A stretch of 59,667 nucleotides of DNA, filler included, from Catajapyx aquilonaris (Eukaryota): NCBI GenBank assembly GCA_000934665.2. It is 2 parts of 2 records of this genome, joined end to end, with 100 filler letters (N's around TTAATTAATTAA, not from the genome) between each part and the next. Parts side by side here need not be neighbours in the genome. Positions count along the whole stretch, not along the records: positions 29,890 to 59,667 come from KZ539209.1; 1 more part is not named here. The stretch is one strand, 5' to 3'. This document shows, piece after piece, positions 15,714 through 59,667 of the stretch; the first letter of the stretch is position 1, and each line of letters begins with the position of its first letter. The position numbers were made by a program, and so were the translations under genes. The notes below the pieces were generated by a model. It was not told the origin of the DNA and ran no database searches. It saw nothing but the letters and a program-made list of their open reading frames with translations.

Positions 15714-15900
15714 CTGTGCAGTTTCCTGGTTTGCCAAGCTGAGAAGTGAGCGCACCAAACCAGGGTCAGCAACAGAGTCACTAAATCTGCAGGGTCACTC
15801 TCCATCAATATCTTGAAAAAGTTGCTCTTTTTTTTACAACCATTAACGCTTGCGCGTATTTGTGACGTCATCTTGTCCCTTCCAAAAGTGATTGGTTGGA
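15714..15900 (-). promoter_or_regulatory. Candidate promoter and first exon on the minus strand
   Basis: CCAAT box (~15890-15896, minus), CRE TGACGTCA at 15863-15870, then strong donor CAG|GTAAGA at 15714/15713. Confidence 0.35.
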
Positions 15901-17279
15901 GAACCCTAGTGACTTGCACGTTTTTTCCACACCCATCAAACCCCGAGGGACAAGGATTGCACGATTGCTCTTAACCCCCCCCCCCCCCTCCTTTTTTTTA
16001 CTACTACCACCCCCCTGAACACCTCAAGCCCACCGCTTTTTTTGTTGCACTTGTTGCACCTGCCTGAGTCATTCTAGAAGCCTATTATCGGTAAGATGCT
16101 ATATAGAAGCCAGGGGGGATACAGTTTATAGGATCATTACTGCTAGCCCAAGGATCAATTTTAGCGAAATTAAATAATGATTATTGCTGCTCTATACAGA
16201 AAAGGGGAAGATTTTCATACTTTCATGATACTATGCAATCAATTTTAATAATTTTTTATACTATATTACACAGGCACTATTCGTGTCAGACATGCACGGT
16301 GGAATTTCCAAGTTGTTAATTATACAGTAGTTTTAACTGTATAGTGTTGATTCGTAGTAAATAAACTGGCCTTATTATACCAGCAACTGTGGCTATTTAT
16401 GCGCTAACTTTTCATTAATCCCCATATTAACTGGCCTTTATGCGCTTGACCACTATTAAATGTTTCATATATCGATCCAGCTCATAAAGATTAATGCATT
16501 ATTAATTTCAAAGCAAGATATTGTTATAATGGTATACCATATTGTTCCCCATCCTCCTTTACCAGGCGGATATTCAGCCTGGTGGATTTTTGCCTCTCAT
16601 GTTTTAGCCAGTAGATGGAACTAAGGCACGTTTGGCTATAGATAACACGCACCATGACGATATCTATAGCGTAAACACCACGATGTATAGTGTGTATTAC
16701 CATGGGAAATTTGAGACCGCGGTACGTACTAATAATTGAATGACCCAACAGAACAAAGACCAAAGTCCAGCAAGATAGGAAACTGGTGCAAAATATTTTT
16801 AAATGGTCAAGAATAATTTAATTACGCCTACGCTTAAAAGGTATTTCTGCTACCAATTTTTAAATCAGGCATGCTTTAATTTCAATTATCACATAGACTT
16901 CAGCTCATGTTCTATTGGATCATTCAATTAAGTAAATAAGTACGAGTATGCCCATCGAAATTGGTATATTGTGATGTGCGTCAGAAGTATTATGTTTTGA
17001 GCATAAGGAATTTAGAGTGAGACCTTGCCTATAGGTTGTTGGGCGGGTTTTCTCTTATTTGATCAGGGAAGATAAAGACCTTCATTCTCACTTGCCAGTG
17101 TTGCGAATAGCGGTGGGAATCAAAGGGGGAGAGGGTATTCGAGGTATAGCAGGTTACATAATCATGAGTACATGACACATGATCCAGCTGGCTATGTAAA
17201 AACATGTCATCAATGATGTGAAAATGTGAATGAGGTTATACATAGGTTACTGCAGGAATTACACTGTAGGGCCTACAGA

Positions 17280-17682: not shown

Positions 17683-18080
17683 TATATGTATTTTTTTCAA
17701 CACCCTCTGACTGTTTACTCACCCAGTAAGTGGAACAAAATGAGAAAATTGGACAGGCAATAAAATGTAGGCCTATGCAGCTCATTCATTCCTAATATCA
17801 GATAGACCCTTTAGACCGTACCTTTCCAATGCCAAGTAGTGTTCCTGCCACCAACACCTTTCACCAGCAACTTTTCAATTTTGCCTTTTACCTCTTTAAA
17901 ATTATCACAGGGGACGCTAGGAACATCAGATAATTTTAATTCTTCAAATAATAGTAGATCGTGACTGATTTTTTGAGATTCCATTATCCATGAACCCCTT
18001 CACTACGGACCGCCTCCCTGACTGTGAAGATAAGGACAAGAGATTTTACACATAATAACAGATACCGGTACACGTACATG

Positions 18081-18712
18081 TTCATGCAAAAGACTGAATA
18101 TATTTTGGAACCATTTTCATCATCTAGAAGTCCCTAAATTAATTTTCAAAAATATCGCTGTAAAAACTTCAAATTCAGTAGGCTACTATTGGCCAACTGT
18201 TAGGCCAATTTAATTATGAAATATGTTGAAACATACGGAGCATGTACCTTGAGAACGGTGCCAGATGAATTTGCTGAAATAGTTGTACTTCATGAGAAAT
18301 ATATTAAATTTTATTCTTATCTGCGGCTTGCTGGCACTTCGGAAAACCCCCTAATATTATTTCATGCGAAGTACAACGATTTCAGCAAATTCATCTGGCA
18401 TGGTTCTCAAGGTAGATGCTCCGTATATTTTAACTTACGGTATTTCATAATTAAATCAGCCTAATAACACTGGGTAGTACTTGGAAGTTTGAGTTTTTAC
18501 AGCAATATTTTTGAAAATTAATTTAGGAAATGATTTAGGAAAATTGTTCCAAAGGCATTCATAGTGAAGAGCATGAAGGTGGTGGTCTAACAGTTAGCCG
18601 GTAGTACAGTACTAGAATTTCAGGTTTGTACAGCGATCTTTTTGAAAATTAATTTAGGGACTTCTAGATGATGAAAATTGATCCAAACACATTCATAGTG
18701 TTTTGCATGAAC
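18081..18712. repeat. Foldback element: nested long inverted repeats with a duplicated right arm
   Basis: ~18200-18300 pairs with ~18358-18462; ~18081-18180 pairs with both ~18478-18577 and ~18610-18712. Confidence 0.8.
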
Positions 18713-19145
18713 GGGTAAGTATGGCTGTTGTTATTTGCAATATATTTTGTCCATATCTTTACAGTACGCGTAATAGAAAATCTAGGTGTTTTCGGCCTAG
18801 CTTGTAGCGAAGGGGTTAAAACCAATGTTCATATTCATTATGAGTTTACACTTCATGTCCTCTTGGTTTCTTTATTGTTTTCATATGCACCAATAAGAGG
18901 TTTTCATGCCAAAATGCAATCCTCCATAAGCACTTTTTTGTGCCACTCAAAATAAATCCCTCATGCCAATATTTATAACAGATTATTAAAACCGAAGGGT
19001 GTCATCCAACCAGTTTTTAAGCTTCTGTTATGTATCATTCCAATTGTGGTTTAGTCATCATCTAAGGATTTTATTATCATTCAGAAGTCAATCTACAGAT
19101 GTTCATATCAGTTGGCTGTTATATTATCTACATTAGGGTCTACTG

Positions 19146-20580: not shown

Positions 20581-20928
20581 CATCCTGTTGGAAGGAAATT
20601 TGGATTTGGAATTTTTTGGGGATGGGATAGATGTATGGCTGAAGGGGAATTAGTAGTTGGCATGTAGGTATGCCAGGAGTATTGAATGAGATATGATACA
20701 TACGCAGGCTAGTCATGTTGCGGACAGCTCTTGCCGGTTGGGTTGCGGAAAGATGTTGAGAGGTTGTTTACACTGTGCTGCTTTTGCTGGCTAGAACAGA
20801 TTGGAAATGAGTGTTAGTGCAACATCATCAGGTAAACATTTCAGTAAGTCGAATAATGTGATGTATGCGTAATATTTCAGTTTGAAGTTACGGAGACCAG
20901 AAATGCATCATTGGCCGCCATCAACAAC

Positions 20929-21036
20929 ATGTCCCTTGTGGACCTTGGGAAGAAGTTGCTGTTTTGTGCGAAGACTGGAGACACAGACCAAGTACGAGCC
21001 CTCATGACAAAAGGAGCACCATTTACAACTGATGGG
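20929..21036 (+). CDS. GABPB1: GA-binding protein subunit beta (ankyrin repeat), first coding exon only
   Basis: [36 protein letters not shown] closely matches the GABPB N-terminus ([36 protein letters not shown]); acceptor tttcAG at 20880; donor GTAAGT at 21037. Confidence 0.85.
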
Positions 21037-21059
21037 GTAAGTAGGAAGGAAATGAATTA

Positions 21060-21486
21060 CACTGTACTCCAAATTATAGTGATTCGGATTATCCATGCAT
21101 CACTAAACCGTGCATTCATTAGTCCGGATCAGCCCGAGGACACTTCTATCCTAGGCAAATAGAAAAAGCCGTGCCATTATCTCTTCCCGCAGTGGCGCTA
21201 ATATATCTGCAATGGAATCCTGCTGTGGAACTCACGTCTCCATAAGTTCAGCGCCTCTTATGGCACAATTATTTACTTATGCCTACAGCTTTATACGGCT
21301 CTATAGGCGTTAGTGCATAGTTGTGCCGTAATAGGCGCAGAACATATGGAGATGCGAGTTCCACAGCGGGGTTCCATTGCAGATATACTAGCTCCACTGC
21401 AGGAAGGGATAACGGGAAGCAAGGTGGCGTCGAGTGTCCCGACCTATTCTTCTTAGACCGTGGTCTGGATAATAGGGAGTACGGTG
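21060..21486. mobile_element. MITE (CACTGTACTCC TIR, TA TSD) with a nested palindromic element at ~21183-21407
   Basis: ta-cactgtactcc ... ggagtacggtg-ta; inner ~85-bp arms ttcccgcagtgg...ggcacaa / ttgtgcc...ccactgcaggaa. Confidence 0.7.
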
Positions 21487-23007: not shown

Positions 23008-23343
23008 GACACTCCCTATACCAGTACATTGCTCCCCCTGTGTACCTTAGCTGATCTCCCCCACTGCGGGGGTTTGCCATGCCGGCGCTGCAGTCTCGGA
23101 CTCCAAGATGGTGGTGCCTTACCTAGTGGGAAATTCTGAACCATTTCGGTCGACTCCGATTGGCTGGAGTAGTACACACCTTCTGTACTGCTCCACAGGA
23201 GGCCTTAACTACTCGAGCCTATCGGAGTCGAACCAAATTGGTTCAGAATTTCCTGCTAGGTAAGGCACCACCATCTTAGAGTTTGAGACGGCAGCGCCAG
23301 CATGGCAAACCCCGGCAGTGGGGGAGATCAGCTAAGGTGCACA
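23008..23343. mobile_element. Palindromic MITE, family A copy 1
   Basis: ~135-bp arms cttagctgatctccccca...ggagtagt / actactc...tgggggagatcagctaagg; homologous to 27526-27836. Confidence 0.8.
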
Positions 23344-23794
23344 TATAAATGTGCGGATACAGACCTATATTAGCGACACAGTCCGTTGCCTCCACCGACT
23401 AATACCCTCCCGCCTCCCGCACGGCAGTAAGAGCAAGTACAGCCGAAAAAAGTCTCTAAAATTGGCCATTTAAGCACCAATGCCCGAAATAGGCAATTTT
23501 AGGTTCGGGTCATTCGACGTGAAGCCATCATGAGGTGTGCTCGTGAATTTTAGGTTTCGAGAATATTTTGCAGGGAGATAGACCTATCACTAAACTCTAG
23601 ATATCCCAAGTATTTCTCTTCGCTGGCCTCTAGATCACAAGAGGTGAGGGGATATGTCTGAGGGGGCAAATTGCAACTTTCAGAATCAAGTATATCATAA
23701 ACTACGTGTCGTAGCGACTCTTTTCATGGAACATTTGTCTCAGATCATAGAATGTTGGATTTGAAAATGTAATCACTTATGATATATATGAGGC

Positions 23795-25081
23795 ATTCCA
23801 CGTCAAGCAGGCCACCTTCCGACAAATCTTTGAGGACTTTGACCAAAATTTAGTGACATGTACTACTCATCGACCTTTGCAGGAAACCAAATTATTATAC
23901 CTCTGCGTTGCGTGGTTGCGTAACTACGTACAGGGTGCAGAATCTACCAATTTATACGGTTTTTGCTTCGCATGCAGTCACTTGGATTACCATATCTCCC
24001 AGAGGATAAGTCCAAATCCTAAATTTATATGTGAGTTGGATACCTATTTTAACGCTCTGTGAGATGGCCATACTTATGATTACGATAATCAAAAATATAA
24101 AGTCAAAAAGTGGCGCTCCAATTTTGATTTTGATTGTTCTCAAACTTGGACATCTTTGAGATTTTTTTAATGGCTCTTAAAATGATGCTGGACATGTCTG
24201 GCCGATATTACCGAAAACTCTACGAGACTGAATTTGGTCTTTCTCGCGCTAGAAGCCGAAACGCAACCCTTGTGCATGCGAGGGGACCAGCCCGCCCGCC
24301 TTTCTGCGTGTATCCAATTCTAGCATGTGAAAGACCAAATTCGGTCTCGTAGAGATTTCGGAAATATCGGCCAGACATGTCCAGCTTCATTTTAAGAGTC
24401 ATTCGAGAAATTTCAAAAATGTCCCAAGTTTGAGAAAAATCAAAATTGGAGCGCCACTTTTTGATTTTATAATTTTGATTCCCCTAGTCATCAGTATGGT
24501 CATCTCATAGAGCGTTAAAATAGGTATCCAACGCACACATTAAGTTTAGGATTTGTATCTATCATCTTGGAGTTATGGTAATCCAAGTGACTGCATGAGA
24601 AGCAAAAATCCGTACAAGGGTTGCGTTTCGGCTTATAGCACGTGAAAGACCAAATTCGGTCTCGTAGAGTTTTCGGAAATATCAGCCAGACATGTCCAGC
24701 TTCATTTTAAGAGTCATTCAAAAAATTTCAGAAATGTCTAATTTTGTGAAAAATCAAAATTGGAGCGCCTCTTTTTGACTTTATATTTTTGATTATTGTA
24801 ATCATAAGTATGGCCATCTCATAGAGCGTTAAAATAGGTATCCAACTCACACATCAAGTTTATGATTTGTACTTATCCTCTTGGATGGCAATCCAAGTGA
24901 CTGCATGCGAAGCAAAAATCCGTATAAATTGGTAGATTCCGCACCCTGTAGTTACGCAACAACGCAAAGCAGAGGTATAATAATTTGGTTTCCTGCATAG
25001 GTCGATGAGTAGTACATGTCACTAAATTTTGATCAAGGTCCTCAAAGATTTGTCGGAAAGGTGGCCCACTTGACGTGGAAT
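23795..25081. mobile_element. Foldback element with ~470-bp inverted arms
   Basis: 23795-24273 is the reverse complement of 24613-25081; 24320-24612 is an extra tandem copy of the inner right arm. Confidence 0.88.
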
Positions 25082-27525: not shown

Positions 27526-27836
27526 CCCCCAGTCACTCTCCCTCTTTTCGCATGAGCTTAGTTGATTTCCCCCACCGAGGGGGGTTGGCCACGGTCGTGC
27601 AAGAGTCAAGTGCCAGTTCAGGTGGCGCCTTACCTAGCGGGGCAATTCTGCACCATTAGGGTCGACTCCAGCCAATCGGGAGTCGACCCTAATGGTTCAG
27701 AATTGCCCCGCTAGGTAAGGCGCCACCTATACTGGCACTTGACTCTAGCGCCGACCGTGGACAACCCCCATCAGTGGGGGAGATCAGCTAAGCTCACGGG
27801 GGTGGCAATGTAATGGTATAGGGAGTGACTGGGGGC
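27526..27836. mobile_element. Palindromic MITE, family A copy 2
   Basis: Arms cccccagtcactc...gggtcgactcc / ggagtcgaccc...gagtgactggggg; homologous to 23008-23343. Confidence 0.8.
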
Positions 27837-29789: not shown

Positions 29790-29889
29790 NNNNNNNNNNN
29801 NNNNNNNNNNNNNNNNNNNNNNNNNNNNNNNNNTTAATTAATTAANNNNNNNNNNNNNNNNNNNNNNNNNNNNNNNNNNNNNNNNNNNN
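29790..29889. other. Assembly gap with artificial stop-codon linker
   Basis: 44 N + TTAATTAATTAA + 44 N = exactly 100 bp. Confidence 0.95.
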
Positions 29890-31577
29890 CCAAAACGGTC
29901 ACGTGGTTTATGGACGACCCCTTACCTGGGCTCTGAAATGTCTCATGGCGTTCTCAGGTGAGCACCCCCTGCAAAACGCCCCGGCAGGGGGTGGGTGGGA
30001 GTGACCAGACCTTACTTTCTATGACCACGGTCAGAGCAGTAAGGTAGGGTCGCCACATGTCTGTGAAGCCCTGACAAGCGCAATCACTTGGCCACCTGCA
30101 GCAAAAACCCCGTCAAGCGAGATGTGATTGACGCAACATCCATTTCTTCCCGGAGGATGCTTTATTGGATAAGTCTCGGAAGACACCTCTGATCAATCCA
30201 TTTGGTTCGGCAGACAACTGCTTATCATGCCAAAGCCTGTTCTGAAATCAAATTTCATCAGATGCATCAAATTCGTCTTGATTGTACGTCGATTCTTCGA
30301 CTGAGCTTTACAGGCACCACATCATCCATGGTGAGCATCATACTTGTTCCTTTGTGCTGCTGCTACCGCAAGTTGTTTGGCAGGAGTTTTCAGCACAACA
30401 ATAGGCTTCCTCATTATTGAGGTTTATAAAGATGATGATTCTAAGGCGAGATGTTAAAGTTGTAGTATATAGAAGAGGAAAAGGCTGGCAATAATATTGA
30501 GATTACCTCAACAGTGCAAAACTGCTGGAACGATTTGTGGCATTTGGTATGCCTTACGTCCGCGGTTTAATGTTACTTTAGGGTGGTTCCATTTCAGATC
30601 AGCCAGTGAGTGAAAAAAGGTGTCAGGTCATAGTCGTCGTTTTTTTAAAAATATATGTGAAGCCCACATCCAATTGAACTCTTATGGAGCAATCGGTTAT
30701 ACGAGATTAAATTTAGTTATCGAGATATTAATATTTCTTTTAAGGGGTACCAAAATAACCTTCACTGGAAGGTGCACTTTTTCCATTGCTTTCAATGAGT
30801 ATATTTCGGGAACTGGTATGAAAACCAACATGATATTTTAAACTCGTGCTTTTGGAATAACACACTACTGCTATGTAATGCATAAATTTACCTTATTTAA
30901 TGGTACAGTCACCTGCAAAAAAATCTCCAATCTTGCATATTTTGGTCAAAATGCACATATTTCGCAATTTATTACGCCGTTATGGTAAACGTGACGGTTG
31001 TGCTGATGATATTTTGTGATATACTCGGTGACCCCCTAAAGGTTATGAAATAAAACCTTTGTTAGCTCCGCGTGTAGCTGAGATGTGCGAGGTGGAAATA
31101 TGGCAACAAGCGAAAACATGCATGTTTCAAAAATTATTTTCTCAAAAAAGCCGTTTTAAATATTTTTTATTTATTTTTTATTTTACAAGGACGGACATGT
31201 TATAAAATTAAGTAGTGTCAAATCCCAGTATATATTTTTTATACGTGAGATATAAATTTTTGTAAACTAACAACTTTCGTCATTGTCCTACAATATGGAC
31301 ACTTAAAATAAATATTTTCTGGAAGAAGCAATTTTGAAAATTTAATCGTTTTTTGTATAACAAAGTAGCATGAGTTCGATTATAAAAGGATATCAAAATT
31401 CGGTATATATTATTTTCTATTCAGTCGAAAGGATTTTTTTTCACAGGGGTAATTTTTGTTTAAGTATGCAACAACATGCACATTTCTAAAATTAATATCT
31501 CGAAACCCCAATTTTTAATATCTAATATTTTATATTTCATAAAGGAAAGACCAGTTCTGTCATAAAATAATATAAAA

Positions 31578-32669
31578 ACCTGGTATCAGCTCAAACTTGT
31601 CACCAGGCTGTAAATAAAATAACCGTCAACCATGTGTGACACTAATAATTATTCAATGCAAAATAAGGTACAAACCAAGTCACGAATCTGCTGAAAGAAT
31701 ACAGATACGCTGCAACTGTTCAGGTTGTTGAAATTTTCTGAACTGTGGATCAGGACTCTGCCAACCGGTCCCTCCCGCATTTACGTGTTCTCCCCCGCCG
31801 CCCCTCACGCAGGGTTATTTCCCCCGCCGTAGAGATTATCGCTAAATTATTATATTTAGTACCTCACTCAGCCCCATGTCACTTCCACCCTAGTTGTATG
31901 GATACGGTAGTTTAATTTCTCTGTCTCCACCAGTCTGGGAATTTGGCGCTGGCCGCGCTACATCGTTCGCTATCCGCCATCTTTTTCAAGGTGTACTCAA
32001 GTGGTAAGTCTGCGGAAGAGAGATCCAGCCAATCGCGACAGACTACCCGCTACCTACCACAGGAGTTGGGAGTTGCACCTTGAACAAGATGGCGTCTTAG
32101 CGAACGATGGGACACAGAATCCCCCTCTCAGATGCCCAATCCCCCTCATTATGTCATTACCTCCGCCTCATTTTTTGGGGGTAGGGTCGGCAGCTCTGGG
32201 ACAGACACCTTCTTAGAGCGGATCTTTTGCGCACGGTAACCAAACACAAACAGCATGGCATCTATCACATTGCTCTTTCCACTTCCATTTGGGCCCACAA
32301 TTGCTGTAAAACTCTATAAGCATACAAATTAAGGATAAGCACAACATCCTAATAATGGTTACAATGCAATGCAAAGAATTACATACCTTACAAAATGGGC
32401 CAAGTATCTTGACCCCAGCATAACTCTTGAAATTGTGTAGCTGAATTTGGGTTATGACAAGCCGGGGAGTGCCTGAATCAAATGTGAGCGCCGGTTTTGG
32501 AGGGGGTGCGACATACATTTCCCCAATTCGGATTTCCGCCGTCTTCATCCCGTTCCACTACCACATCACTCTCCGCAATATGATGGACTCAGACAGAGCA
32601 ACAAGAGTGGCATCACGCACTACCATTGTAGCTCTCGTCTTGCTTCTGCGCTTTGCGCTTACGACCCAT
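31578..32669 (-). pseudogene. SMC4: Inverted partial duplicate of the SMC4 5' end (exons 1-2 and start of exon 3)
   Basis: RLVITQIQLHNFKSYAG and [32 protein letters not shown] on the minus strand; early stop and frameshift in exon 1; same transposon insertion (31757-32198); truncated in exon 3. Confidence 0.9.
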
Positions 32670-32915
32670 CTTCCAGCTATCCGCCTCTGTGCAGTCACAG
32701 TTACCTAAACCTGTAATGTTAAAAAACATATTTTAATAAAAGGCAACAAAAAATCCTAAAAATAATCAGTGGAGCAGAAAACCGTCCTTGCCCATATTTA
32801 TGCAATTCCAATAAAATCATAATTATTTAATGGTGCAGTGTTATTTTGATGTCCTTTATTATGTAGAAGATGGCCTTTATGCTCTTAACTAAGCACTTCA
32901 ATTAGCAGCATTCAG

Positions 32916-33070
32916 AAGGTAACGCCTGGCCAATTATCGCGCAGCAGTATGTGACGTCACATCTATGCGTCACATAGACGTGACGTCACATCTATGCGTC
33001 ACATAGACGTGACGTCACATAGATGTGACGTCACATACTGCTGCGCGATAATTGGCCAGGCGCTACCCTT
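32916..33070. repeat. Palindromic MITE-like element with 29-bp internal tandem repeats and four TGACGTCA sites
   Basis: Arms cgcctggccaattatcgcgcagcagtatgtgacgtcacatctatg / reverse complement; CRE at 32952, 32981, 33010, 33026. Confidence 0.88.
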
Positions 33071-34857
33071 CCTTCCCTGGTCAGGTGCAAGGAACAGGAA
33101 CATTCGTTCGGTACGTGGTTCGTTTGTTCGTTTGAGGTACAGCCAGCGGTCCCTATCCTCACAACATCGGCAAGACTGTCAGGTGCGATGTAGGGCCGGT
33201 GCTTCGCCTTGTGGATGTCGAAACACTTGTCTTTTTGTAGCGGTGTCCGCAGGTGTCCGGGCGAGGGGAGGTGTTCCATCCGGTTCCATCTGCCTGGTTG
33301 GGGCTCAGGAATCGAACGTTGTGGAGTAGGATTGATCGAAAAGTGCGTGGTTGTGACAAATATTATATACGCGCTACACGTATATAATATTTGGTTGTGG
33401 TACCTGCACCAGGTGGTTGGCAACCTCACGGACGCACAGGGCTTGGTAGGCCTAGTTCGAATCCTGTCATCACAAATGCCCGTTAGGTTACCTCAACTAT
33501 AGTGACACCTGATTAGTTTGTGTCCTAGTGTGTAGGTATAGCTGCTGGTAGTCCGGAGGTGAAACACATAACGGAATTGCATGGGATCTAAAGAATTTTC
33601 CATAATGGACAGGTTTCTGCTATATATCCATCAAAAAATATATTGCATGTCCTATGCTCGTTTTCGGAAAGAGATCCATAATATTGACAAGTTTCCGCTA
33701 CACTATTTATGGGTTCGTTATGGACAGATTTTACTGGAGTTAGACTCAATTCTAGATGGGTGAATGTTATAATCCCCAGTAGTAGGCTAGAGGCTGCATG
33801 TAACAATTTGGGCTAAGCATTGTGCGACAGTGCCAGTGCAGAGACTCATCAAATTGCACTGAAATGTAAGCTGTTACCTAGGTATGTCAGAATTTCATTG
33901 CTTGCGATTTATGTGCATCATAATTTTTTGTTGCTGACATCTTTAAAAATGGATTAGAACAGTTTTCTGGTGGTGTGATGGCCATTGGAATGGAAAGGGG
34001 CTTTTCGAGCCTTTCTTTCGGACTGACCAGGGTTGGAGAGAGTAGTTTCTGCCATTTGGCTTTCTAAGCCCCTGTGGAATTTCCTTAGCCTGCTGTGCTC
34101 GCTATACTGGTAATATGTTGGGGATCATTTTTGTATTGCTCTCTGGAGGAGCCTATAACCTTCTGAATGCTGCTTAGTTAAGAGCATAAAGGCCATCTTC
34201 TACATAATAAAGGACATCAAAATAACACTGCACCATTAAATAATTATGATTTTATTGGAATTTCATAAATATGGGCAAGGACGGTTTTTGTTCCACTGAT
34301 TATTTTTAGGATTTTTTGTTGCCTTTTATTAAAATATGTTGTTTAACATTACCGGTTTAGGTAACTGTGACTGCACAGAGGCGGATAGCTGGAAGATGGG
34401 CCGTAAGCGCAAAGCGCAGAAGCAAGACGAGAGCTCTCCTGCTGCTCTGTCTGAGTCCGTCATTGCGGAGAGTGATGTACGTGGTAGTGGAACGGGATGA
34501 GGACGGCGGAATCCGAATAGGTCAAATGTATGTCGCACACATGGGTCGTACCCCCTCCAAAACCGGCGCTCACATTTGATTCAGACACTCCCCGGCTTGT
34601 CATAACCCAAATTCAGCTACACAATTTCAAGAGTTATGCTGGGGTCAAGACTCTTGGCCCATTTGGTAAGGTGTGTAATTCTTTGCATTGCATTGTAACC
34701 ATTATTAGGATGTTGTGCTTATCCTTAATTTGTATGCTTATAGAGTTTCACAGCAATTGTGGGCCCAAATGGAAGTGGAAAGAGCAATGTGATAGATGCC
34801 ATGCTGTTTGTGTTTGGTTACCGTGCGCAAAAGATCCGCTGTAAGAAGGTGTCTGTG

Positions 34858-35334
34858 GAGCTGCCAACCCTACCCCCAAAAAATGAGGCGGAGGTAATGA
34901 CATAATGAGGGGGATTGGGCATCTGAGAGGGGGATTCTGTGTCCCATCGTTCGCTAAGACGCCATCTTGTTCAAGGTGCAACTCCTGTGGACGCTGTGGT
35001 AGGTAGCGGGTAGTCTGTCGCGATTGGCTGGATCTTTCTTCCGCAGACTTACCACTTGAGTACACCTTGAAAAAGATGGCGGATAGCGAACGATGTAGCG
35101 CGGCCAGCGCCAAATTCCCAGCCTGGTGGAGACACAGAAATTAAACTACCGTATCCATACAACTAGGGGGGAAGTGACATGGGGATGAGTGAGGTAGTAG
35201 GCCTACTAGTACTAAATATAATAATTTAACGATAATCTCTATACGGCGGGGGAAATAACCCTGCGTGAGGGGCGGCGGGGGAGAACACGTAAATGCGGGA
35301 GTCCCCCACCCAATGCGGGAGGGTTGGCAGTGCC
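34858..35334. mobile_element. Non-autonomous DNA transposon inserted in SMC4 exon 2
   Basis: Termini (ca)gagctgccaaccct / agggttggcag; splits KKVSV|LIHSSE; internal palindrome cgccatcttgttcaaggtg...caccttgaaaaagatggcg; further copies at 31757-32198 and 5192-5590. Confidence 0.85.
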
Positions 35335-36145
35335 CTGATCCACAGTTCAGAAAATTTCAACAACCTGAACAGTTGTAGCGTGTCTGTATTCTTTCAACAG
35401 ATTCGTGACTTGGTTTGTACCTTATTTTGCATTGAATAATTATTATATAGTGTCACATATGGTTGACGGTTCTTTTACAGCCTGGTGACAAGTTTGAGCC
35501 GATTCCAGGGTCAGAACTTCGGATTTCAAGGACTGCTTGCCGTGACAACTCATCTTATTATGAGATCAACGGTATGCGAAACATGTTCAAGGATGTGGCT
35601 GCTTTGCTTAGGCAGCATGGAATTGACCTGGATGGCTGGATCACAATCGATTCCTCATTTTGCAGGTGTGTACTTCTTGTAGTTTGTATTTCACACATAT
35701 TTGAAGATAATTATAATGACTAATTTAATATGCTTTCTTGTCTAGGGAGAGGTTGAGCAAATTGCTCTGATGAAAGCAAAATCTGTCAATGAGCATGAAA
35801 CTGGCATGTTGGAGTACCTAGAGGACATAGTTGGGTCAAATCGTTTGAAAGAACCCATAGTGGAATATATTACAGGAATAGTGGAAATACTAAGCAACAT
35901 CCGCAATGAACAGATGCAGAAGCTAAAGATCCTGGGCCAAGAGACGCACGTACTCCAGGCAGAGAGAGCTAAGGCATTTGCCTACCTTGAACTGGAGAAC
36001 AAGCTGGCCAGATTTCGTGGGATGGTTACTCTTAATTTATTAGGATTTATTGGGACTACATATTTTCAAACATGAGATTTCACTCAATAAGTTTTGCAAA
36101 GCCAGCATGTAGCTAAACTGAAGTAAATTATTAACCTCCTTGTGC

Positions 36146-36471
36146 GCCGAATGTAATTGTCAGTGATGAGCACCTCTTACAAAGATCCATAAGGTGTAAA
36201 TGATGTGCAGATAATAAATTATGAAGTGCAATTTAATAATACATTGTTGCAAGTGACAGTTGTTGTTTAGGAGTACTAATTACTTGATGTTCTTTAACAG
36301 TAACAAAAGCCGAATATAATAGTTGTCATTGATGAGGAGCGCCTCTTAAAAAGATCCATAAGGTGTAAATTATGTGCAGATAATAAATTATGAAGGGCAA
36401 TTTAATAATACGTTTGTTGCAAGTGGAAGTTATTTAGGAGTAATTACTTGATGTTTTTTAACAGTAACAAA
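36146..36471. repeat. Tandem duplication (~163-bp unit) of an SMC4 intron end including the acceptor
   Basis: gccgaat...gatccataaggtgtaaat...tttaacagtaacaaa occurs twice. Confidence 0.85.
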
Positions 36472-37588
36472 CGTACTCCCAAACTTGTGAAAATTGAGAA
36501 AGATGCAGAAGAAGTGGGGCAAAAACTGGCAGAGGTGCAAGAGAAGTTGAAAAACATGACTGCCATGAGGCCATGGCGGCTGCAGCAAAGTAAGTATAAT
36601 TGCTTCTGTGGGCTTGGTTGATGTCCAAAAAAGGAAAACATTGTCTAACTGGCTTTAATTTGTAGGGAGTGTGGAAGCCGCACTCGGCAGAAGGACCAAC
36701 TGCATGCTACCTTCAACAAACTGGACAAAGAGTGTTTTAAGATTACAGAGGATATGAAACATCGTAATGAGCAGTGCAAGAAAAATCAACACAGTTTGCT
36801 GGAGGCAGAGAAGAAAAAGGTCAGTGTGATGCACTTTGTGGATGACCCATTATGGCCAATGAGGCTTCTGCAAACCTCTTACTATCTCAGGCTGTTTCGA
36901 ATTCTTCTTATAAAATTTAGCTCAATTGAAGCAGTGAGAATCAGAAGTTGTTAAGTCCATTTTCCCCATTTTTCAGGAGAGCAGTTTGAAAGTTTCACGT
37001 AATGTTTGACATACCTTTCTTTGACATTACAGTCTCGGTAATTTTTATGTGATATCACTACGATTGTAAGTTAATATAATATAAATATGGAGTATCTAGT
37101 GCCCACACTGCAGGAGAAAAAAAAATTTCCGTCTTGGACTTTAACAACTTCTGGCTTGCAGAAATTTTGTGTTAATTTTTAAAACACTAACATGAGAAAA
37201 TGCAGGGAAATAATATCTCCTAAATTAATTTTAGTCCCTTTATTAGGCCTGAATGTGATGACAATAATTCTAAATACATTTTTTATGAAGGCCCTTTTTG
37301 GACTTTTCAACATCTGGCACGAATTTTCTCTGCAGTGCTAAGAGTATCCCGGTCTGAAAAGGGGACTTGTAATCATCTGGCTGGGATAAAACATTTTTCT
37401 ATGAACGTATGCCTGATATAGAGGCCTAGAATTTGCCCTTATCTTAAAATCGCCAAAAATGGACTTAGCAACTTCTGGTTATCGCTGCTTCAAATATTGG
37501 AAAGAGGCTAATAGAACAGTTTCAGGGCTTGAACAAAAAAAAGGGGGGGGGGGGGATTTGCATACTTGTAACACTTGTAATACTTGTA

Positions 37589-37925
37589 CAATAGAACCCC
37601 CATTATCCGTCACCCATGGGACCAGGCATGGTCGGAGCACAAAGAAAGGTCGGGTAATCCGAGGAGCAAGGAAAACCTTAATAAAGCACAAAAAAAAAAT
37701 CCGGACATAATGTACACTGTTACTGACTTCTAAAAAACAGAGAAGTATTTATCTTTTACATGTACAGATTGCACACTCTACTGTACTGTATTTACCATTT
37801 AACTAAAGCAATAAGAAACAAATGCATAGTAGCCCACATTACAGGGTTTGGTGAGAATAATATATTTATTTGTGAAGGTGGAGGGGTCAGATGAACCGAA
37901 GAGTTGGATAATCGGGGTTCTACTG
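37589..37925. mobile_element. Tigger/pogo-like MITE in an SMC4 intron
   Basis: TIRs caatagaacccccattatcc / ggataatcggggttctactg, TA TSD. Confidence 0.8.
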
Positions 37926-40900
37926 TAATACTTGTAAGTGAAAGGATATTAATTCCAGTTTGTACTTTTGCTTTGATAGCTGGAAGTGCTGCAGAAAGTT
38001 TCTAAATGCAATGCAGATGAGATTGAAATCTTGACTGGTAGGAAGGAGTTGACTCTAATAATTGACCAGCAGAAGGCACAAAAGGACTACCAGGTTGCTA
38101 TCCTAGGTCTGAGACAAGAGACCAAAGACTTGCAAGACCAGAAGGAGGTGCAGGAAAACAGGCTGCTGGTACTTCAAAAAGACAGGAATGACACTAAATG
38201 TGTGGTATGTAGATTAGATAGTACATTATTTTGTATTTTTCCATGCATTAACATTTTAGTTTGACATGTGTAGAATTTAATCCATGTGAACAGGTACAGC
38301 TATAAGCTCAGGAAGATGGACACATATCAAATTGCTGATATCTATGCTCCAACACAAATGTCCTAATGATTGTTGACTTTCTGTATCGTGTTATTCCCTA
38401 GTTTGACCTGGCCCAGTCAGAGTTGCAGTTGTATCTGAGCCCAGAGAAATCTGCAAAGGACAGGCTGGAGGAGCTGAAGCACAACCTGACTGAGGCAGGA
38501 AACAAATTTGCCAGCCTCAATGCTAAAGTGGTGGAGATGGAAGCGAGGATTCCGGAGCTGGAAGTCAATATGAAGAAGGGTGGGGCTGATTTGAAAAAGG
38601 TAGCAGAGGATGTTGCCGCAGCTGAGGCAGAACTCCAGAGAAAGCAAGCGGCCATTGGGGAGGTGAGGTCTGCACAGCAGAGTATGCAGAGCAGGGGCAG
38701 GATGCTCTCAGAATTGCTGGAGCAGAAGCAAGAAGGGAATCTTCCAGGAATCTACGGACGATTGGGGAGTGAATGAAGCTTCCCGCATGAGGCCCTCTTA
38801 CATAATACATTTTGGATGTATGCAGCCTCTGTGCCCTTTTTTAAAATGGGCTGCCTTTCTCTGGAATGCATGACTAGGATGTGGGCCAATAGAGGGGACA
38901 AAACATTGTTATAAGGTCATAAACCTGACCTTGTTATGGTCAAGTAGAGCAGATCTGTGACCCTCAGGCTACTACATTTATAAACATATTGGAGAATTTG
39001 ACCTGATAGCTAACATGTACTGTATAAATATTCGCATGTAATGCCAGTGTATTCATTCCTTAGGGTGACTTGGGTGCTATAGAGCCGAAGTATGATGTGG
39101 CAGTCGCTACTGCTTGTCCTTTCCTGGACGACATTGTTGTAGACACAGTGAATACTGCTCAGAAGTGCATTGAGTTTCTGAAGAAGAACAATCAGGGAAA
39201 AGCATCATTCGTCCCTCTGGAAACACAGTAGCACATTCGGGCACTGTACAAAGCAAAATTCAGGCCGTGAGTTGAATTACACTTTGTCAATGTGGCACCA
39301 CATACCATTTGTGCCGTCCTTGAATGTGGCATTTAATAAGTGTTGGATTTTTATTATACTTTCAGCCCTGAGAATGTACCTCGCTTGTTTGACCTGGTGC
39401 GTGTGGAAAATGAGACTATCCGACCTGCCTTTTACTTTCGTCTACGTGACACATTGGTTGCCGATGACCTGACCCAGGCCATGCGCATAGCTTATGGTCA
39501 AGTCCGTTACAGGGTGGTCACCCTCAAGGGGGAGTTAATTGAGACATCCGGAACTATGAGTGGTGGTGGAGGCTGGCCAAGCAGGGGACTGATGGGCCAT
39601 TCTGTGGTGTCAAGCCAGGGTGCAGCATCTCCAGGTGAGAGTCACTGCCTGCAGAAACAAGTAGATGAGCTTATGGGGAAGGTATGGGCTCTGAGGGATC
39701 ACGAGGCCCTGCTGGAAGAGGAGGTGTCTCGGATGGAGAGGGAGGCACAGACTCTGAGGAGAAAAGTACAAAGGTCCAGAATGGAGGCACAGGTAACTGG
39801 AGATCAAGAAAAAAGGCTGCGGGAGCAATGAAGGAGCAGGAGAAGAGGGTTAAGGAAACCAAGCCTGACGAAAGGAAGGTCGCCCAGATGGTGGCTGAAG
39901 TTAAGAAGACAAAATCTGGTGAGTGTTGAGTTTGAATTTTTAATATGGACATAAATGCAGTAAAACCCTACTGCGATGAATCTCGGGGGTCTGAAATAAG
40001 AGGATTTTAGCGCAATGGGTTTCTGCCTCTTTCTACACTCTCCCTCGGCTTCATTAAAATGTGTTCATTACCATTAATAAGGAGATTGTGTAGCTATTGA
40101 ATAAATATGTAACAGCTAGGTGTGTGGACAGCTTTAAGAGAAAAGAATTGCTTTTTGGAAGTTGCTTCACTAATCATGGACTGTTCCATCAATCACTGTG
40201 CCTTTTTTTTACACAAGACCTTTGGTGCTTCCAGCATATGAGAAGGCATCAGGGAAGACTGAAAAGATCCAGGAAGAAGTCACCCGTTTGACCAACAAGA
40301 TCCAAGATATCACTAAGAACCACATGAAGCCAGTGGAGAATACGCTTAAGACTGTCACAAGTAAAGTGGAGAAGGTGACCGGGGCCTTTACAAGCCTAAC
40401 GGTAGCGATCAAGACTTCCAAGAGGAATGCAGCGAAGAGCCAGGAGAAGATCAACAGCCTGGAGGTGGATGTGTCCGAGGCAGCCCTCCAACTCCAGCAC
40501 ATGAGTGAGAAGAGAAAGGAATTGGATTCTGAAGGACAAGAGTTGTTAGCCAAAATGGAGGTTTATCGCAGTGAAATAGAGGAGTACCAAGCTCGTCTTG
40601 CAGAGCTGAATCAGGGTAAGGAGGAGCTGGCTGGCATGGAGAATGAATCAAAGAAGGAATCCATTGACCTGGAGGCAAAGAAGTCGGAACTGACAAAGAA
40701 AGTGAGTGAGATTAAAACTGGGATCGATTCCCGGAAGAAGCAGTTAAAACAACTGACGGTGCACAATTTGGAAACAGGACAGGAGACACCATTGGAAGAG
40801 GTGAACTCATTTTATTTGTGGTCATCTGTTGAGAGGGGTCAACTTGTAAGCAAAGGTTGGAAGTGCTTCTTGTTTGTTTGTATAGCCAGTTGTTTCCTGT

Positions 40901-42252
40901 GGCCGTCACAATGAAACCTTATGCTGGCAATGACCTGAAGAGTCAGCATGACAGATTACATCTCCTACAGTTCAATTGGTCAGCTACATTTCGGGTGGGG
41001 TACCAACCACATCAAGTTGTGCAACTGCATGCAGTATTATTAAGTTGCATTATAACCATTAATACAAGTTCAAGGAGCATGCTCTTATTTTAAGGAGAGT
41101 AATTCTATCAGTGTAGAAGTGCTTACAACTGTCCATTGCTTCCTGATAGTTGGAACCAGAAAGGCTAGATGAAGTGGATGAAACCCATATCAGCAACCAG
41201 GTTACAAACATTGAGGAGGAGCTGAAGAGCATGCATCCAAACCTGGGCGTGATTGCTCAGTATCAAACGAAGGAAGATGATTACCTGAAGTGTGTGTCTG
41301 CACTTGAGGCGGTCACAAGGCGATGGGACATCCAGATGCTGCAATGTGATGATCTGCGCAGACAGAGGCACAGGGAGTTCATCTCTGCCTTCGGAATCAT
41401 TACTGCAAAGCTAAAAGAGGTGTACCAGATGATCACGTTAGGTATGGATTTCAAGGAGTTACTTTATGGGGTCACTTACACAGTACCAAGGATGTTCAGC
41501 CAGGTCCACTATTAGGTTGCTCGATGCAGTGCTAAACATAACTACAAACAATGTAACCTGATAGTACAGACATTATATCCTTGTTGGCATTTAGTAGCTT
41601 GGTAGTGGACCAGGTCCAATATCCTCAGGTCTGTATAAATGACCCCCTGTTCCATATCTGCTAGGAATTCGCAGGAATTTGAATAATATTTCATTGGCTT
41701 GCGTTAATATAAAGTTGCTTGTTGATTCCTGTCATTAGGAGGCGATGCTAATATAGCTCATAAACACTGCATAATGAAGAAATATTTTAAGTTATGTTCT
41801 TTTACTATTTTTCTAGTATTTTATTGTAAGTTATTTATGATATTAACATGAGATTTCCATCAGTACATTGTTTCCATTTGTCACACCATTTGCAATAATT
41901 ATATGTCACATCATGTGTAACGATTCAGTACCATAACAGAAAGAAATTATTAAACAATATCTATGCAGTTTTTGTGCAATTTATTCCTTCCAAGTGTCAT
42001 TTTTAGCAATTTCTCAAGCCTACAACGTGGACCGGACATGAAAGTGACCTGCAGCACCTCGAAGTGACCTCCAAGGTCACGGGGTAAGGCCGTGGCCAAA
42101 GTATTCCAAACCCCCAGCAGCCCCCACCCCCGTCCCCCCTTTCTGTAGCCACGGATACGGTACCGTATCACGATTTAGTTCGGAGAGTAAACCGATAGCG
42201 GCGCCACCAGCAAAGCGGGGACGAATTTTTAGTATTGAGTTTCCCATCTAGA

Positions 42253-46282: not shown

Positions 46283-46456
46283 NNNNNNNNNNNNNNNNNN
46301 NNNNNNNNNNNNNNNNNNNNNNNNNNNNNNNNNNNNNNNNNNNNNNNNNNNNNNNNNNNNNNNNNNNNNNNNNNNNNNNNNNNNNNNNNNNNNNNNNNNN
46401 NNNNNNNNNNNNNNNNNNNNNNNNNNNNNNNNNNNNNNNNNNNNNNNNNNNNNNNN
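46283..46456. other. Assembly gap
   Basis: Run of N preceded by a poly-G tract. Confidence 0.95.
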
Positions 46457-49759: not shown

Positions 49760-52384
49760 GCATCGTTGGAACTGAGAGATGCAGGAGAGGACGGGAAAAT
49801 GATAGCCGTTGTAACACGAGGTGCGGAGCGCCGTGTATTCACTGTAGTTGAGAGATGCATAATGGATCTATGGACTAATATCGTTGTCCTGGAGGTGCAT
49901 CCTGTCGTGGATCCCCTCGACCCTATGGTCAGTATGCATCAGCTTAAAAATAACGTTGATATTTTTTTTTCAAAATTATAACCATTTATAACACTACATA
50001 AAATTACCTACTGCTATACGGTACCTCATTTATTCTTTTTTTTTTTTTTTTAATGTACCCCGTTGTGGGCCTAAGCCCTATAGGGGAGTGGGACACCACC
50101 ATTTCTTTTTGTTCGATTTTCTATATCTTCCAACTCCGGTGCAAGGACGAAAGGACATGGGGTAAGGATAGGGACTTTTTGGGGAGGGAACATAGGTGCA
50201 GGTGCAATGTCTACAAATGGGTCATGTGCTGTCCCCCAGGAGGTTAGGTTGCCAGACACCTCCTTGGTGCAGGTCAGAGACCCTCCCGACGCAGGTGAAA
50301 GGAAAGTTCCCCAGGCGGGGATCGAACCTGGGGCCTTTCACACAGCAAGCCGTGACGTTACCATCACGGCCACCACACCTCCCCCTACCTCATTTATTCA
50401 TATACGTATGTGCATGAATAGCATGATGTGCTCTTGAAATAATTGCGCCAGACAGCAAACTGTAAATGCCATTCTATAATTAAGTTTTATTCAAGCGTAT
50501 ACACTTACAACACAGGCCAACCAATGGTGCAAACACACCACAAAATATTATGCAGCATTAGTTACATTTAGAGAACGGATTTCTAGGTTTTTACCTCATT
50601 TTTATTCTGTAGGCAGAGTACCGGAACCAAACTATCCGTTTCATAACACAAGGACCTCAAATATCATAGTTTTATACTTGTAGAACATAAAATTGCATAT
50701 TTTGGGGGTTGGGACCTAAATGGCATATTAGCGCCTATTAGCGCCTATTTTCATATATTTTCACCTTTTAATGTTGCATAGGAATCGAAATAAATGAGAA
50801 CCTGCTTGATTTTTACTGCCTATTTAAGAGCTTATTTTGACTGTTTTCAGGGCCTAAATGCCTACCTACTTGAAGGTTTTTTAGAGCCTAAAAATCCTTT
50901 CTTTAGGTTTTAGGATAATTCAGGTTATGATTGTGTTTCTGATTATGCAAAATTTTGAGTTAATGAAGTGTGATTTATTGCATGTTGTTACAGTTTATTA
51001 TTTCCTCTTGCATTTTCTGTGACAGATGCACTGCCTTTGGTAATGGTGTATGATTTGTGTGCCTGTATGTGATCAGGAATCAATAGAAACAGATCAGCAA
51101 TGGAATCACCCTTGTGACGGTTTTTTTCTGTGGGGTTGGGAAAAACAAGGTGTACAAACCTGACACAAAGACAATATTAATACCCTTGAATATAAACTTC
51201 GCGAAGTCCTAGCTGCTGTTCCACATTAGTTTTCATATGCTTACTAATGACATTAGGCTATAAAATAATGTAGGGTAAGTTGGGGTAAGTGCGACAATGG
51301 GGCAAGTGAGGAATTGCTTCTAATTATTATGAAGCACAAGGTGGCAGGAGCTATCAAAAATCAGGTAAACGTTCACGACGACCTTTGCCCACTCTGATAA
51401 AAGTAGCACGATAATCTTACTTTCGTAACATAGACAAAAATAATATGGCCATGTTGGTGTTTTAACTTTTCCGGCGACTATGTACGAGTATCTATCGTAA
51501 GTATCTTTTGCAGGATGGTTTTTAAAAGGGGGACATCGTCGGGGGAAAGTGCGTGCCCAATTAATACGGATATGCCTATATGGATCGAAATGCAATATTG
51601 TAGGAATAAAGCTAGCGGTCGCCAAAAGAGGCGACGAGACATTTTTTTGTGGTCACCAATGGATATTCCGCTACTGGCGACATGCTAATTTCGAACACTG
51701 CACTGGTGTGAAAACACTCCACATAAATGCATTTTAACCAGATAATGCCAGTACTGTTGGCCAGCCTGTTGCGGAGCAGAGAATAAAAGTATAGCTACGT
51801 CCTGGAAAAACTTCTTGGATTTTTTAAAATTCGGAAAAATTTATATAGACTGACGGAGGAAGTTAGTGTCTTTGTGGTACGATTCCTATGCAACCCGAGC
51901 AATGTTTATTACTGTGAGAGAATTCCACAAACGTACTTACCCCATATCGCGGGGCAAGTGCTGCACCTGCACCACGTGCATATTTTGATTATTTTTAGGA
52001 GCACCCACATAATAATAGATGAATGTTATGTAATAGGCCAATTTGAAAGCCAATAACGTATATAAGGTACGGTATATTGTTCATTACTTTTTTCTCTCAC
52101 TTGCTAATTACTGAGGAAATAGCATGCTTTTAAACTGCACCTAATCAAAATCCGGCCGCACTTACCACAACTTACCCTATTTTTAGTTTCTTCGAGCTGG
52201 CCCAGCCACCACCAGGGGCAGACGCAGGGGTGGCAGCAGGGGTGGCAGCAGGGGTGGAAGCAGGGGTGGCAGCAGGGGTGGCAGCAGGGGTGGCAGCAGG
52301 GGTGGCAGCAGGGGTGGCAGCAGGGGTGGCAGCAGGGGTGGAAACCGAGGTAGAGGCAGGGGTGGAAGCCGGAGCCGCCGCTAG
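49760..52384 (+). CDS. Candidate small spliced gene with RGG-rich C-terminus
   Basis: Exon 49760-49927 (tttttcaAG ... ATG|GTCAGT, open, phase 0) joins exon 52187-52384 (ttttttAG): FLRAGPATTRGRR(RGGS)9RGGNRGRGRGGSRSRR*. Upstream donor GCA|GTAAGT at ~49244; AATAAA at 52873. Confidence 0.4.
50036..50385 (-). mobile_element. tRNA-derived SINE (family C) with poly-A tail
   Basis: A box TGGCCGTGATGG, B box GGTTCGATCCC, T17 tail on + strand; 14-bp TSD TACCTCATTTATTC. Confidence 0.9.
50569..50907. mobile_element. MITE with TAGAGAACGGATTT terminus
   Basis: tagagaacggatttctagg ... cctaaaaatcctttcttta; first ~105 bp recur inverted at ~26835-26944. Confidence 0.6.
51273..52177. mobile_element. pogo-like non-autonomous element
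   Basis: TIRs GGGTAAGTTGGGGTAAGTGC / GCACTTACCACAACTTACCC, TA TSD. Confidence 0.85.
52226..52345. repeat. 12-bp minisatellite (AGGGGTGGCAGC)x10
   Basis: Ten tandem units plus one more at 52358. Confidence 0.95.
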
Positions 52385-58299: not shown

Positions 58300-59333
58300 C
58301 CAACACATGATTGTAAATTAATTCTTATGAAAGTTCAATCAAGTCAATAAAGTAATATTTATAACTAGTTTAGAGGCAAAGAATACACAATGGCTCATAA
58401 GTGTCAACATAACCATTTAGAACAAGTTATCTAGGAGAGTTGAACTGTATAGATCATGAATTAGCTTAATTAGCTATTGTGAATTCTGCTCAACAAGCTC
58501 TCTTATTCCTAATGAAATGTCGTGAGCACAAATGGCTATTTTTGGGAGGTACAGTATAAAAATTAATGGGAAGTGACCTGAGATATCACGGATCTCACTC
58601 AAACGTCATTCGCTACGAGACATATCAGAAACCATCTTTAGTTCGATACATATTTGGCGAGTCGATACAGGAATTAAGTTACGGCTACCGATAATAAAGG
58701 AAGCCAGATGAAGGTCACCAAACCCCTAAAGAGACAGTTGGTCAAGAAGTAGAAAGTTTGTAGCAATTGTGTAGTCAGGTACAAGAACAAAACATCCTTT
58801 TCCGCAATTGTATAGCCCCCTCCTTCTGACAAGGCCCACCATTTTGCCAAAACCGAATTTCTGGAATATGTTGCAATCTTTTCGCTGCCAGGGAGATTTT
58901 TCATCGCGCGCGCTTCTCCGCCCATTTTCGCTCCACTTCCAGTTCGGAGATTTTGTGAAACCTCCTTTATGGAAATGGAATATTAATTTCGATATACACT
59001 GGGTCTTTATTCCTGAGGTGCGGTACGATGCCTAATTTCGTTTCCGCGTTAGACAGGTGAGATACCCCAAGGTGTTAGATATCCCAAAGCGGGTGTCTAA
59101 ATTGAAGATAAATGGCACGGATGATGTCATGTGCCGTTTTAATTTTTTTTTCTCCACCACTTCTTACACTGGGAAAAAGAAAGCTCATTGTTGAACTTTT
59201 TTTTGTAGTAGAAATTGTTATTTTTTCAATGTGGTTTTACTATGGTTTACGTCTATAACTGCAACCCCCAACGTCAACATAATATATATTATTTTATACC
59301 AATACTGCCAGCATGTGGCTACTGGCTAGCCTA

Positions 59334-59532: not shown

Positions 59533-59667
59533 TAGCTATACAGTTTCTGCAAAAGAAACTGTAATGGGCAGGCTTTGTTTAAAAGTAAACTTGTCAGCTA
59601 CAGTAGTCCTACTTATGCAATGGATAGACATAATTATGCCAAAGCATTAATTATGATAGAGTGTGTA

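What the first reader, a model, noticed from the sequence alone, without database searches (positions are those of the whole stretch)
31578..35509. Head-to-head inverted duplication of a condensin SMC4 pseudogene 5' end: candidate hairpin-RNA/siRNA locus against SMC4
Seen: arms 31578-32920 and 34158-35509 (~1.35 kb, similar but diverged) flank a 1.24-kb spacer with promoter-like CpG-rich sequence. Both arms cover the Walker A exon and share one transposon insertion, so the duplication postdates inactivation; each then gained private lesions. Known: inverted gene-derived repeats generate endo-siRNAs (Drosophila hpRNAs) that repress parent or drive genes, and condensin pseudogenes are reported on selfish B chromosomes. 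Inference: a read-through transcript would fold into long dsRNA complementary to functional SMC4 mRNA.
Basis: partly seen in the sequence, partly recalled or inferred. Interest (0 to 1): 0.7.

Follow-up and report, generated by a model that had tools for sequence, protein, structure and literature searches.

The report
Inverted fragment of dead SMC4 copy
A broken extra copy of the chromosome-packing gene SMC4 has a mirror-image copy of its own front end next to it, most likely a decaying transposon-made accident, though it could in principle make silencing RNA against the working gene.

Summary
The inverted repeat is real: arms 31579-32920 and 34158-35509, 1255 of 1295 aligned bases identical, 16 indels. 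Both ends of the left arm abut ends of repeated elements. An intact SMC4 lies on contig C970. New here: the same arm-plus-spacer cassette recurs on C5779 in front of an SMC4 paralogue that lacks the MITE and has no stop in the part held. The hairpin-RNA idea is possible but unshown: 112 paired 21-mers match the intact gene's exons, but the gene's own first exon lies in the loop, so its transcript would hold one arm only, and arm differences show no G.U bias (10 against 11). Expression, small RNAs and B/sex-chromosome location could not be tested. Verdict: ordinary kind of rearrangement, in a small, recombining SMC4 family; interest 0.3.

The parts
31579..32920 (-). Left arm: inverted copy of the end of intron 1, coding exons 1-2 and the first 29 nt of coding exon 3 of the SMC4 pseudogene; no promoter or first exon of its own; frameshifted, stop after 18 codons
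31757..32198 (-). MITE copy in the left arm, inside the Walker A exon; same insertion as in the right arm (same site, same lost outer end of the 3' terminal repeat)
30579..31586 (.). High-copy AT-rich repeat; its end coincides with the distal end of the left arm (40 of the 41 listed matches, this locus's own copy and one short piece aside, stop at query 205-207 or are the self match). Left boundary approximate, from one match
32918..33085 (.). Small hairpin made of two ends of a common repeat, with four TGACGTCA motifs; its left end is fused to the left arm through a 5-nt overlap (GAAGG); identical junction on C5779
33086..34157 (+). Spacer: homologue of the intact gene's non-coding first exon (splice donor after 33183, inferred from sequence) and first intron; 73% identical to C970, 12 of 1057 bases different from C5779
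34158..35509 (+). Right arm: 5' part of the SMC4 pseudogene (ATG 34396; frameshifted, stop after 34 codons)
34858..35330 (+). MITE in the Walker A exon of the right arm; family with many copies in the genome (40 of 248 candidates scored), terminal inverted repeats, 6-7 nt target duplication read by eye in 4 of 4 other copies
35510..41749 (+). Rest of the unprocessed SMC4 pseudogene: 8-nt insertion, 16-nt and 1-nt deletions, two lost splice donors, a TAG at codon 670, and loss of the last exon (signature motif and Walker B) after 41749

Best explanation
A transposon-associated inverted duplication of the 5' end of an already dead SMC4 paralogue, now decaying, with no selected role as a hairpin. 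Order of events: (1) SMC4 was duplicated with its introns, the copy starting near the transcription start and sitting beside a small repeat-derived hairpin (shown: homology to C970 begins near 33120-33170; 73% in the spacer, 93% in exons); (2) a MITE entered the Walker A exon of one copy (shown); (3) a break or template switch at the left end of the hairpin, joined by a 5-nt overlap to intron 1, copied at least 1.34 kb of the gene in reverse (junction shown, mechanism inferred); (4) the unit was duplicated again and recombined with a MITE-free paralogue, giving the sister locus C5779 and probably C3250 (mosaic shown, direction inferred); (5) arms and body gathered private lesions. The native promoter in the loop would make a sense transcript with one arm only; any double-stranded RNA would be incidental read-through.
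For: Arms are genomic copies with introns and a MITE, 40 substitutions and 16 indels; transitions split 10 against 11 between the two strands' G.U options; MITE copies in the three arms differ by 14-16 of 422-449 bases, about as much as they differ from four unrelated family members (11-24), so no recent evening-out there; both ends of the left arm abut repeat ends; the sister locus has lost the distal part of its left arm and has a 1.85-kb insertion in its right arm, leaving 293 of 1155 21-mers paired against 628 of 1322 here; first exon and donor lie in the loop.
Against: 112 paired 21-mers here and 105 at the sister locus still match the intact gene's exons perfectly; the cassette exists at two loci; six derived sites are shared by the window's two arms alone and the sharing patterns among the five arms conflict, so some exchange between arms or loci has occurred; a D. 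simulans hairpin RNA arose from a partial 5' duplication beside its parent gene (PMC10317233, section 12 read). The G.U test has only 21 sites and little power.
Confidence: 0.68

Rival explanations
1. Hairpin-RNA locus: a promoter left of or inside the left arm (for example in the MITE or the flanking repeat) reads through both arms; the fold-back RNA is diced into siRNAs that lower the intact SMC4 or, more fittingly, the open paralogues C5779/C3250, in the germline.
For: 628 of 1322 left-arm 21-mers pair perfectly; of the 389 outside the MITE, 112 match the intact gene's exons, 133 the C5779 copy and 142 the C3250 copy (genomic, introns included). Cassette present at two loci. The SMC4 family is expanded and evolves with dN/dS 0.40-0.61 between copies. 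Precedents: hairpin RNA from a partial 5' duplication at ballchen (PMC10317233); inverted repeats from alternative transposition transcribed from a flanking promoter (bioRxiv 2020.01.07.897926, abstract and passages).
Against: No candidate outside promoter was identified; the native first exon is in the loop; no G.U bias; pairing is eroding at the sister locus; silencing an essential single intact gene would need tight tissue limits (inference).
Confidence: 0.14
2. The functional part is the repeat-derived hairpin with its TGACGTCA and CCAAT motifs, serving as the promoter of the paralogue family; the left arm is a passenger that may be read outwards in the sense direction, giving no double-stranded RNA.
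For: Homology to the intact gene's upstream DNA stops about at the first exon, and the hairpin stands where the core promoter would be; four TGACGTCA motifs, CpG ratio 1.23; the same hairpin precedes the open copy on C5779, though there with a 0.4-kb insertion between hairpin and first exon.
Against: Motifs alone are not function, and they are part of a common repeat; no transcript of a paralogue was identified.
Confidence: 0.1
3. Part of the picture is an assembly product: the mosaic copies C5779 and C3250 are chimeras or alleles of near-identical paralogues in a fragmented assembly, or, less likely, the inversion itself is misjoined.
For: 20583 contigs; C5779, C3250 and C9278 are small contigs; the switch from window-like to MITE-free sequence follows about 200 nt of near identity; none of the contig pieces listed bridges an arm-spacer junction (only the longest were shown).
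Against: The arm-hairpin junction is the same on two separately assembled contigs that differ elsewhere; the arms differ at 40 bases and 16 indels; two contigs show the same switch.
Confidence: 0.08

Closest known systems
Drosophila hairpin RNAs born from partial gene duplications (hairpin at ballchen, hp58, hp-tHMG-solo; PMC10317233, passages and section 12 read)
   Same: Inverted repeat made of a gene's 5' part, mixed with transposon sequence, present in more than one copy, with stretches fully complementary to the parent mRNA.
   Different: Those loci are defined by a primary transcript and Dicer-2-dependent small RNAs; neither is shown here, and the native first exon lies in the loop.
Inverted duplications made by alternative transposition (maize Ac/Ds composite insertions; bioRxiv 2020.01.07.897926, abstract and passages read). 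Antirrhinum niv-525 is recalled only; the term was in none of the 9 papers listed
   Same: Inversion junction at the end of a DNA-transposon-like repeat; double-stranded RNA depends on a flanking or retained promoter.
   Different: Here the repeat is a host gene fragment, the element is a tiny non-coding remnant, and the junction has a 5-nt overlap, so repair of a hairpin-induced break fits as well as transposition.
CAP-G pseudogene on the B chromosome of Eyprepocnemis plorans (PMC5732253, abstract read)
   Same: Broken copy of a condensin subunit gene in an arthropod.
   Different: B location is untested here; that pseudogene is transcribed yet did not change CAP-D2 or CAP-D3 expression, so it is no precedent for silencing.
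Co-amplified X/Y genes with endo-siRNAs in Drosophila (PMC6690552, passages read)
   Same: Several intact, truncated and recombining copies of a chromosome-segregation gene.
   Different: No sex linkage, testis expression or small RNA shown here; only three or four extra copies.
Specialised SMC4 duplicates (C. elegans DPY-27, PMC5373644 abstract read; Paramecium SMC4-2, PMC10700549 search listing only)
   Same: SMC4 duplicated; the paralogues on C3250 and C9278 share changes at residues invariant in 14 of 14 outgroups.
   Different: The copies here are young (2-7% from the intact gene in exons), exchange sequence with it, and the window's copy is dead.

Membership tests
Unprocessed (duplicated) SMC4 pseudogene | Keeps the parent's exon-intron structure | tested here: met
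   12 of 13 coding exons of C970 found in order at 83-97% identity
Unprocessed (duplicated) SMC4 pseudogene | Disabling lesions, with an intact parent elsewhere | tested here: met
   Frameshifts, MITE, stop, lost donors, missing last exon; C970 gives 1360 codons without a stop, 12 GT-AG introns, Walker A, signature and Walker B
Transposon-associated inverted duplication | Inversion junction at the end of a repeated element | tested here: met
   Inner junction at a repeat end; outer end at the end of another repeat. Which mechanism made it was not resolved
Hairpin RNA (hpRNA) locus | Long inverted repeat able to form a duplex | tested here: met
Hairpin RNA (hpRNA) locus | Complementarity of duplex-derived 21-mers to a target mRNA | tested here: met
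   112 of 389 non-MITE paired 21-mers match the intact gene's exons
Hairpin RNA (hpRNA) locus | One transcript that holds both arms | tested here: inconclusive
   Native first exon lies in the loop; only assembled contigs of one transcriptome-like run were available, which cannot decide it
Hairpin RNA (hpRNA) locus | Dicer-2-dependent 21-nt small RNAs and target de-repression | not testable with these tools
   No small-RNA or mutant data
Hairpin RNA (hpRNA) locus | Substitutions that keep pairing (G.U bias on one strand) | tested here: not met
   10 against 11 of 21 transitions, p = 1.0; low power, and a supporting rather than strictly defining feature
B-chromosome or sex-chromosome gene copy | Presence or dose varies among individuals or between sexes | not testable with these tools
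   DNA runs laid came from one sample and contig depth is no copy number
Palindrome kept by arm-to-arm gene conversion (as on primate Y chromosomes; PMC3723533 search listing only) | Arms nearly identical through ongoing conversion | tested here: not met
   Arms 96.9% identical with 16 indels; some local exchange is likely but MITE copies are not evened out

The most novel reading that the evidence does not exclude
The arm-hairpin-spacer cassette is a germline hairpin-RNA source that has spread by recombination among a young family of SMC4 paralogues and silences them or the intact gene: an RNAi suppressor in a conflict fought over condensin, in a genome that also holds SMC4 paralogues with a changed C-terminal ATPase head and a second, very divergent CAP-D2-like gene.
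Probability: 0.08. Interest if true: 0.8.

Novelty: new member of a known kind. Interest (0 to 1): 0.3.

Why it matters
As it most likely stands it is a clear small example of how a repeat end makes an inverted gene fragment, the raw material from which hairpin RNAs are born, and of exchange between young paralogues. It would matter more if small RNAs were found: none of three paper searches listed an siRNA locus directed at a condensin SMC gene. The more promising lead may be the neighbouring fact that this genome has extra, partly open SMC4 copies with shared changes in the ATPase head.

Tried and rejected
1. My first reading, that the MITE entered the left arm only and was later copied into the right arm by conversion (because C5779 has it only on the left), was dropped: the window's right copy differs from C5779 and C3250 both inside the arm (25 differences in columns 251-660) and beyond it (280 and 264 of 3467 columns), while the spacers differ by only 12 of 1057; the simpler account is that the left arm came from the window-type copy and C5779/C3250 are recombinants. 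It is not formally excluded.
2. Expression: no RNA holder listed among 5 runs. Three of the five were laid. Run X5, of unrecorded kind, has contigs that join SMC4 exons across introns; their letters at two joints are those missing from the window's copy, and their difference counts in two exons (20 and 29) equal those of the intact gene, so they come from another copy. X5 shows no contig in the bins covering 32398-33233 and 34070-34487; contigs cannot show absence, so this is no evidence either way.
3. Copy dose from contig depth: window-specific contigs 13-17 (X1) and 24-36 (X2), a joint matching the intact gene 27 and 40; too rough, not used.
4. A further old SMC4 paralogue: the other hinge and head matches that were fetched read as SMC1, SMC2, SMC3 and divergent SMC1-like genes (labels by recalled motifs); two weak head matches (C903, C3385) were not examined.
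5. CAP-D2 copies by Pfam Cnd1: of 7 contigs, four read as adaptin or coatomer subunits, one as CAP-D2, one as CAP-D3, one as divergent CAP-D2-like (labels recalled).
6. Thirteen other open frames of the window against Pfam: 2 of 13 hit (a DDE transposase, a GDSL-like domain); no intact neighbour gene was established.
7. Look-ups of earlier notes near the place and by sequence gave nothing. Supplements of the papers were not opened.

Full report
Observation. The window's strongest self-match is an inverted repeat between 31579-32920 and 34158-35509. The arms agree at 1255 of 1295 aligned columns, with 40 substitutions and 16 indels. Read outwards from the spacer, each arm holds the end of an intron, the first coding exon of SMC4, a short intron, and the Walker A exon interrupted by the same element.

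The gene. The right arm continues as an intron-containing SMC4 copy to 41749. An intact SMC4 lies on contig C970: 13 coding exons, 12 GT-AG introns, 1360 codons without a stop, with Walker A, signature and Walker B motifs. The best database matches of a hinge-side stretch are SMC4 proteins of arthropods and other animals at about 50% identity, so no close annotated relative was available. Against C970 the window's copy has frameshifts in the first coding exon, the element in the second, an 8-nt insertion, 16-nt and 1-nt deletions, two lost splice donors, a TAG at codon 670, and no last exon. It is dead. Searches of the genome with three parts of the gene found four further pieces: C970, C3250, C5779 and C9278. 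C5779 stops at the point matching window 39841 and C9278 starts at 40093, so they may be one copy (not shown). C5779 and C9278 have no stop in the exons they hold; C3250 has one, at codon 916.

The spacer. From 33167 to 34094 it is 73% identical to the DNA in front of the intact gene, and includes a splice donor after 33183 that matches one in C970. I read it as the non-coding first exon and first intron (inference from sequence). The arms therefore begin inside intron 1 and the left arm has no first exon. A transcript from the native start runs right and holds one arm only. A hairpin RNA needs another promoter, left of or within the left arm, or far to the right on the other strand; none was identified.

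The junctions. At 32918-33067 lies a small hairpin (-120.9 kcal/mol). Its arms match the end of a common repeat (40 of 47 candidates scored; the same terminal motif in 8 of 8 loci read). The left arm is fused to its left end through the five bases GAAGG, present in both. The outer end of the left arm meets the end of another high-copy repeat, whose other copies stop matching at 31584-31586. So the arm is bounded by repeat ends on both sides. Aberrant transposition and repair of a hairpin-induced break by template switching both fit; I cannot tell them apart.

The inserted element. It is a MITE of about 470 nt with terminal inverted repeats and many copies; four other copies show 6-7 nt target duplications (read by eye). 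The three copies in SMC4 arms share the site and the loss of the outer 3' terminal repeat, so they stem from one insertion. They differ from each other at 14-16 of 422-449 bases and from four unrelated copies at 11-24: they separated soon after the insertion and have not been evened out.

The sister locus. C5779 has the same left arm, hairpin junction and spacer (12 of 1057 bases different), but its right copy lacks the MITE and is open. C3250 starts inside the spacer and is also MITE-free. I first took this to mean that the MITE had spread from left to right arm in the window. Distances argue otherwise. In columns 251-660 of the arm alignment the two left arms and the window's right arm differ from one another by 12-16 and from the MITE-free copies by 21-28; the tree groups them at 84/88, which is not strong, and groups the two MITE-free copies at 100/99. 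Beyond the arm the window's copy is 264-291 of 3467 columns from all others, which are 77-113 apart. Sharing patterns among the five arms conflict, and 30 sites in the body pair the window with C3250 against C970 and C5779, so the copies have exchanged tracts, unless some are assembly chimeras. At C5779 the left arm has lost its distal part and the right arm has a 1.85-kb insertion.

Could it work as a hairpin RNA? The potential is there: 628 of 1322 left-arm 21-mers pair perfectly; 239 are MITE; of the other 389, 112 match the intact gene's exons. Drosophila simulans has a hairpin RNA made by a partial 5' duplication beside ballchen (PMC10317233; passages and section 12 read), and maize inverted repeats from alternative transposition are transcribed from flanking promoters (bioRxiv 2020.01.07.897926; abstract and passages). 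But nothing here shows selection on pairing: transitions that would leave a G.U pair number 10 on one strand and 11 on the other, and pairing has fallen to 293 of 1155 at the sister locus, though 105 of these still match the intact gene. Expression could not be decided (see tried and rejected). The grasshopper B-chromosome CAP-G pseudogene cited as a parallel was reported not to affect CAP-D2 or CAP-D3 expression (PMC5732253, abstract).

Context. dN/dS between copies is 0.40-0.61 by a simple counting method, which fits relaxed selection. C3250 and C9278 share changes in the last exon at positions invariant in 14 of 14 outgroup proteins (K1225R, L1248H, and R1249 to Q or S). This keeps a conflict or specialisation story open but does not link it to the repeat.

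Verdict. A real inverted duplication of the 5' end of an SMC4 pseudogene, bounded by repeat ends, copied to a second locus, most likely without function (0.68); hairpin RNA 0.14. New member of a known kind; interest 0.3. Three paper searches listed no report of an siRNA locus against SMC4; the library is partial and supplements were not opened.

Noticed in passing
G000:C5779 7866-12043 (L012, L013) and G000:C9278 1-2003 (L011): SMC4 paralogue pieces without a stop in the exons held, possibly one open gene behind the same inverted cassette; N87D in the N-terminal head motif.
   Followed up: partly
G000:C3250 6474-6893 (L009) and G000:C9278 1584-2003 (L011): Both paralogues have His in place of the Leu invariant in 14 of 14 outgroup SMC4 proteins (L1248H), plus K1225R and loss of R1249, and a shorter C-terminal tail. 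His at this loop is the general ABC-ATPase state (recalled).
   Followed up: partly
G000:C3232 about 13900-17000 (L051): Second, very divergent CAP-D2-like gene besides the one on C456.
   Followed up: partly
G000:C6883 (L017) and G000:C1892 (L016): Two divergent SMC1-like genes besides the ordinary one on C2456 (labels by recalled motifs).
   Followed up: no
G000:C970 137258-144742: The intact SMC4 itself departs from residues conserved in at least 10 of 14 outgroups at 27 of the variable positions, some of which the dead copy keeps: fast evolution of the lineage or of this gene.
   Followed up: no
window 20857-21162: Frame resembling the N-terminus of an ankyrin-repeat transcription cofactor (GABP-beta-like, recalled); no Pfam hit for this short piece.
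   Followed up: no
window 29790-29889 and 46283-46456: Assembly gaps; the first holds a 12-letter linker, so the DNA left of 29890 is only scaffold-linked to the SMC4 locus.
   Followed up: no
window 18021-18765, 21174-21415, 23010-25081, 27553-27827, 59321-59544: Many short fold-back repeats, probably MITEs; inverted repeats of transposon origin are common in this window.
   Followed up: no
window 52174-52401: Tandem array of a 12-nt unit.
   Followed up: no
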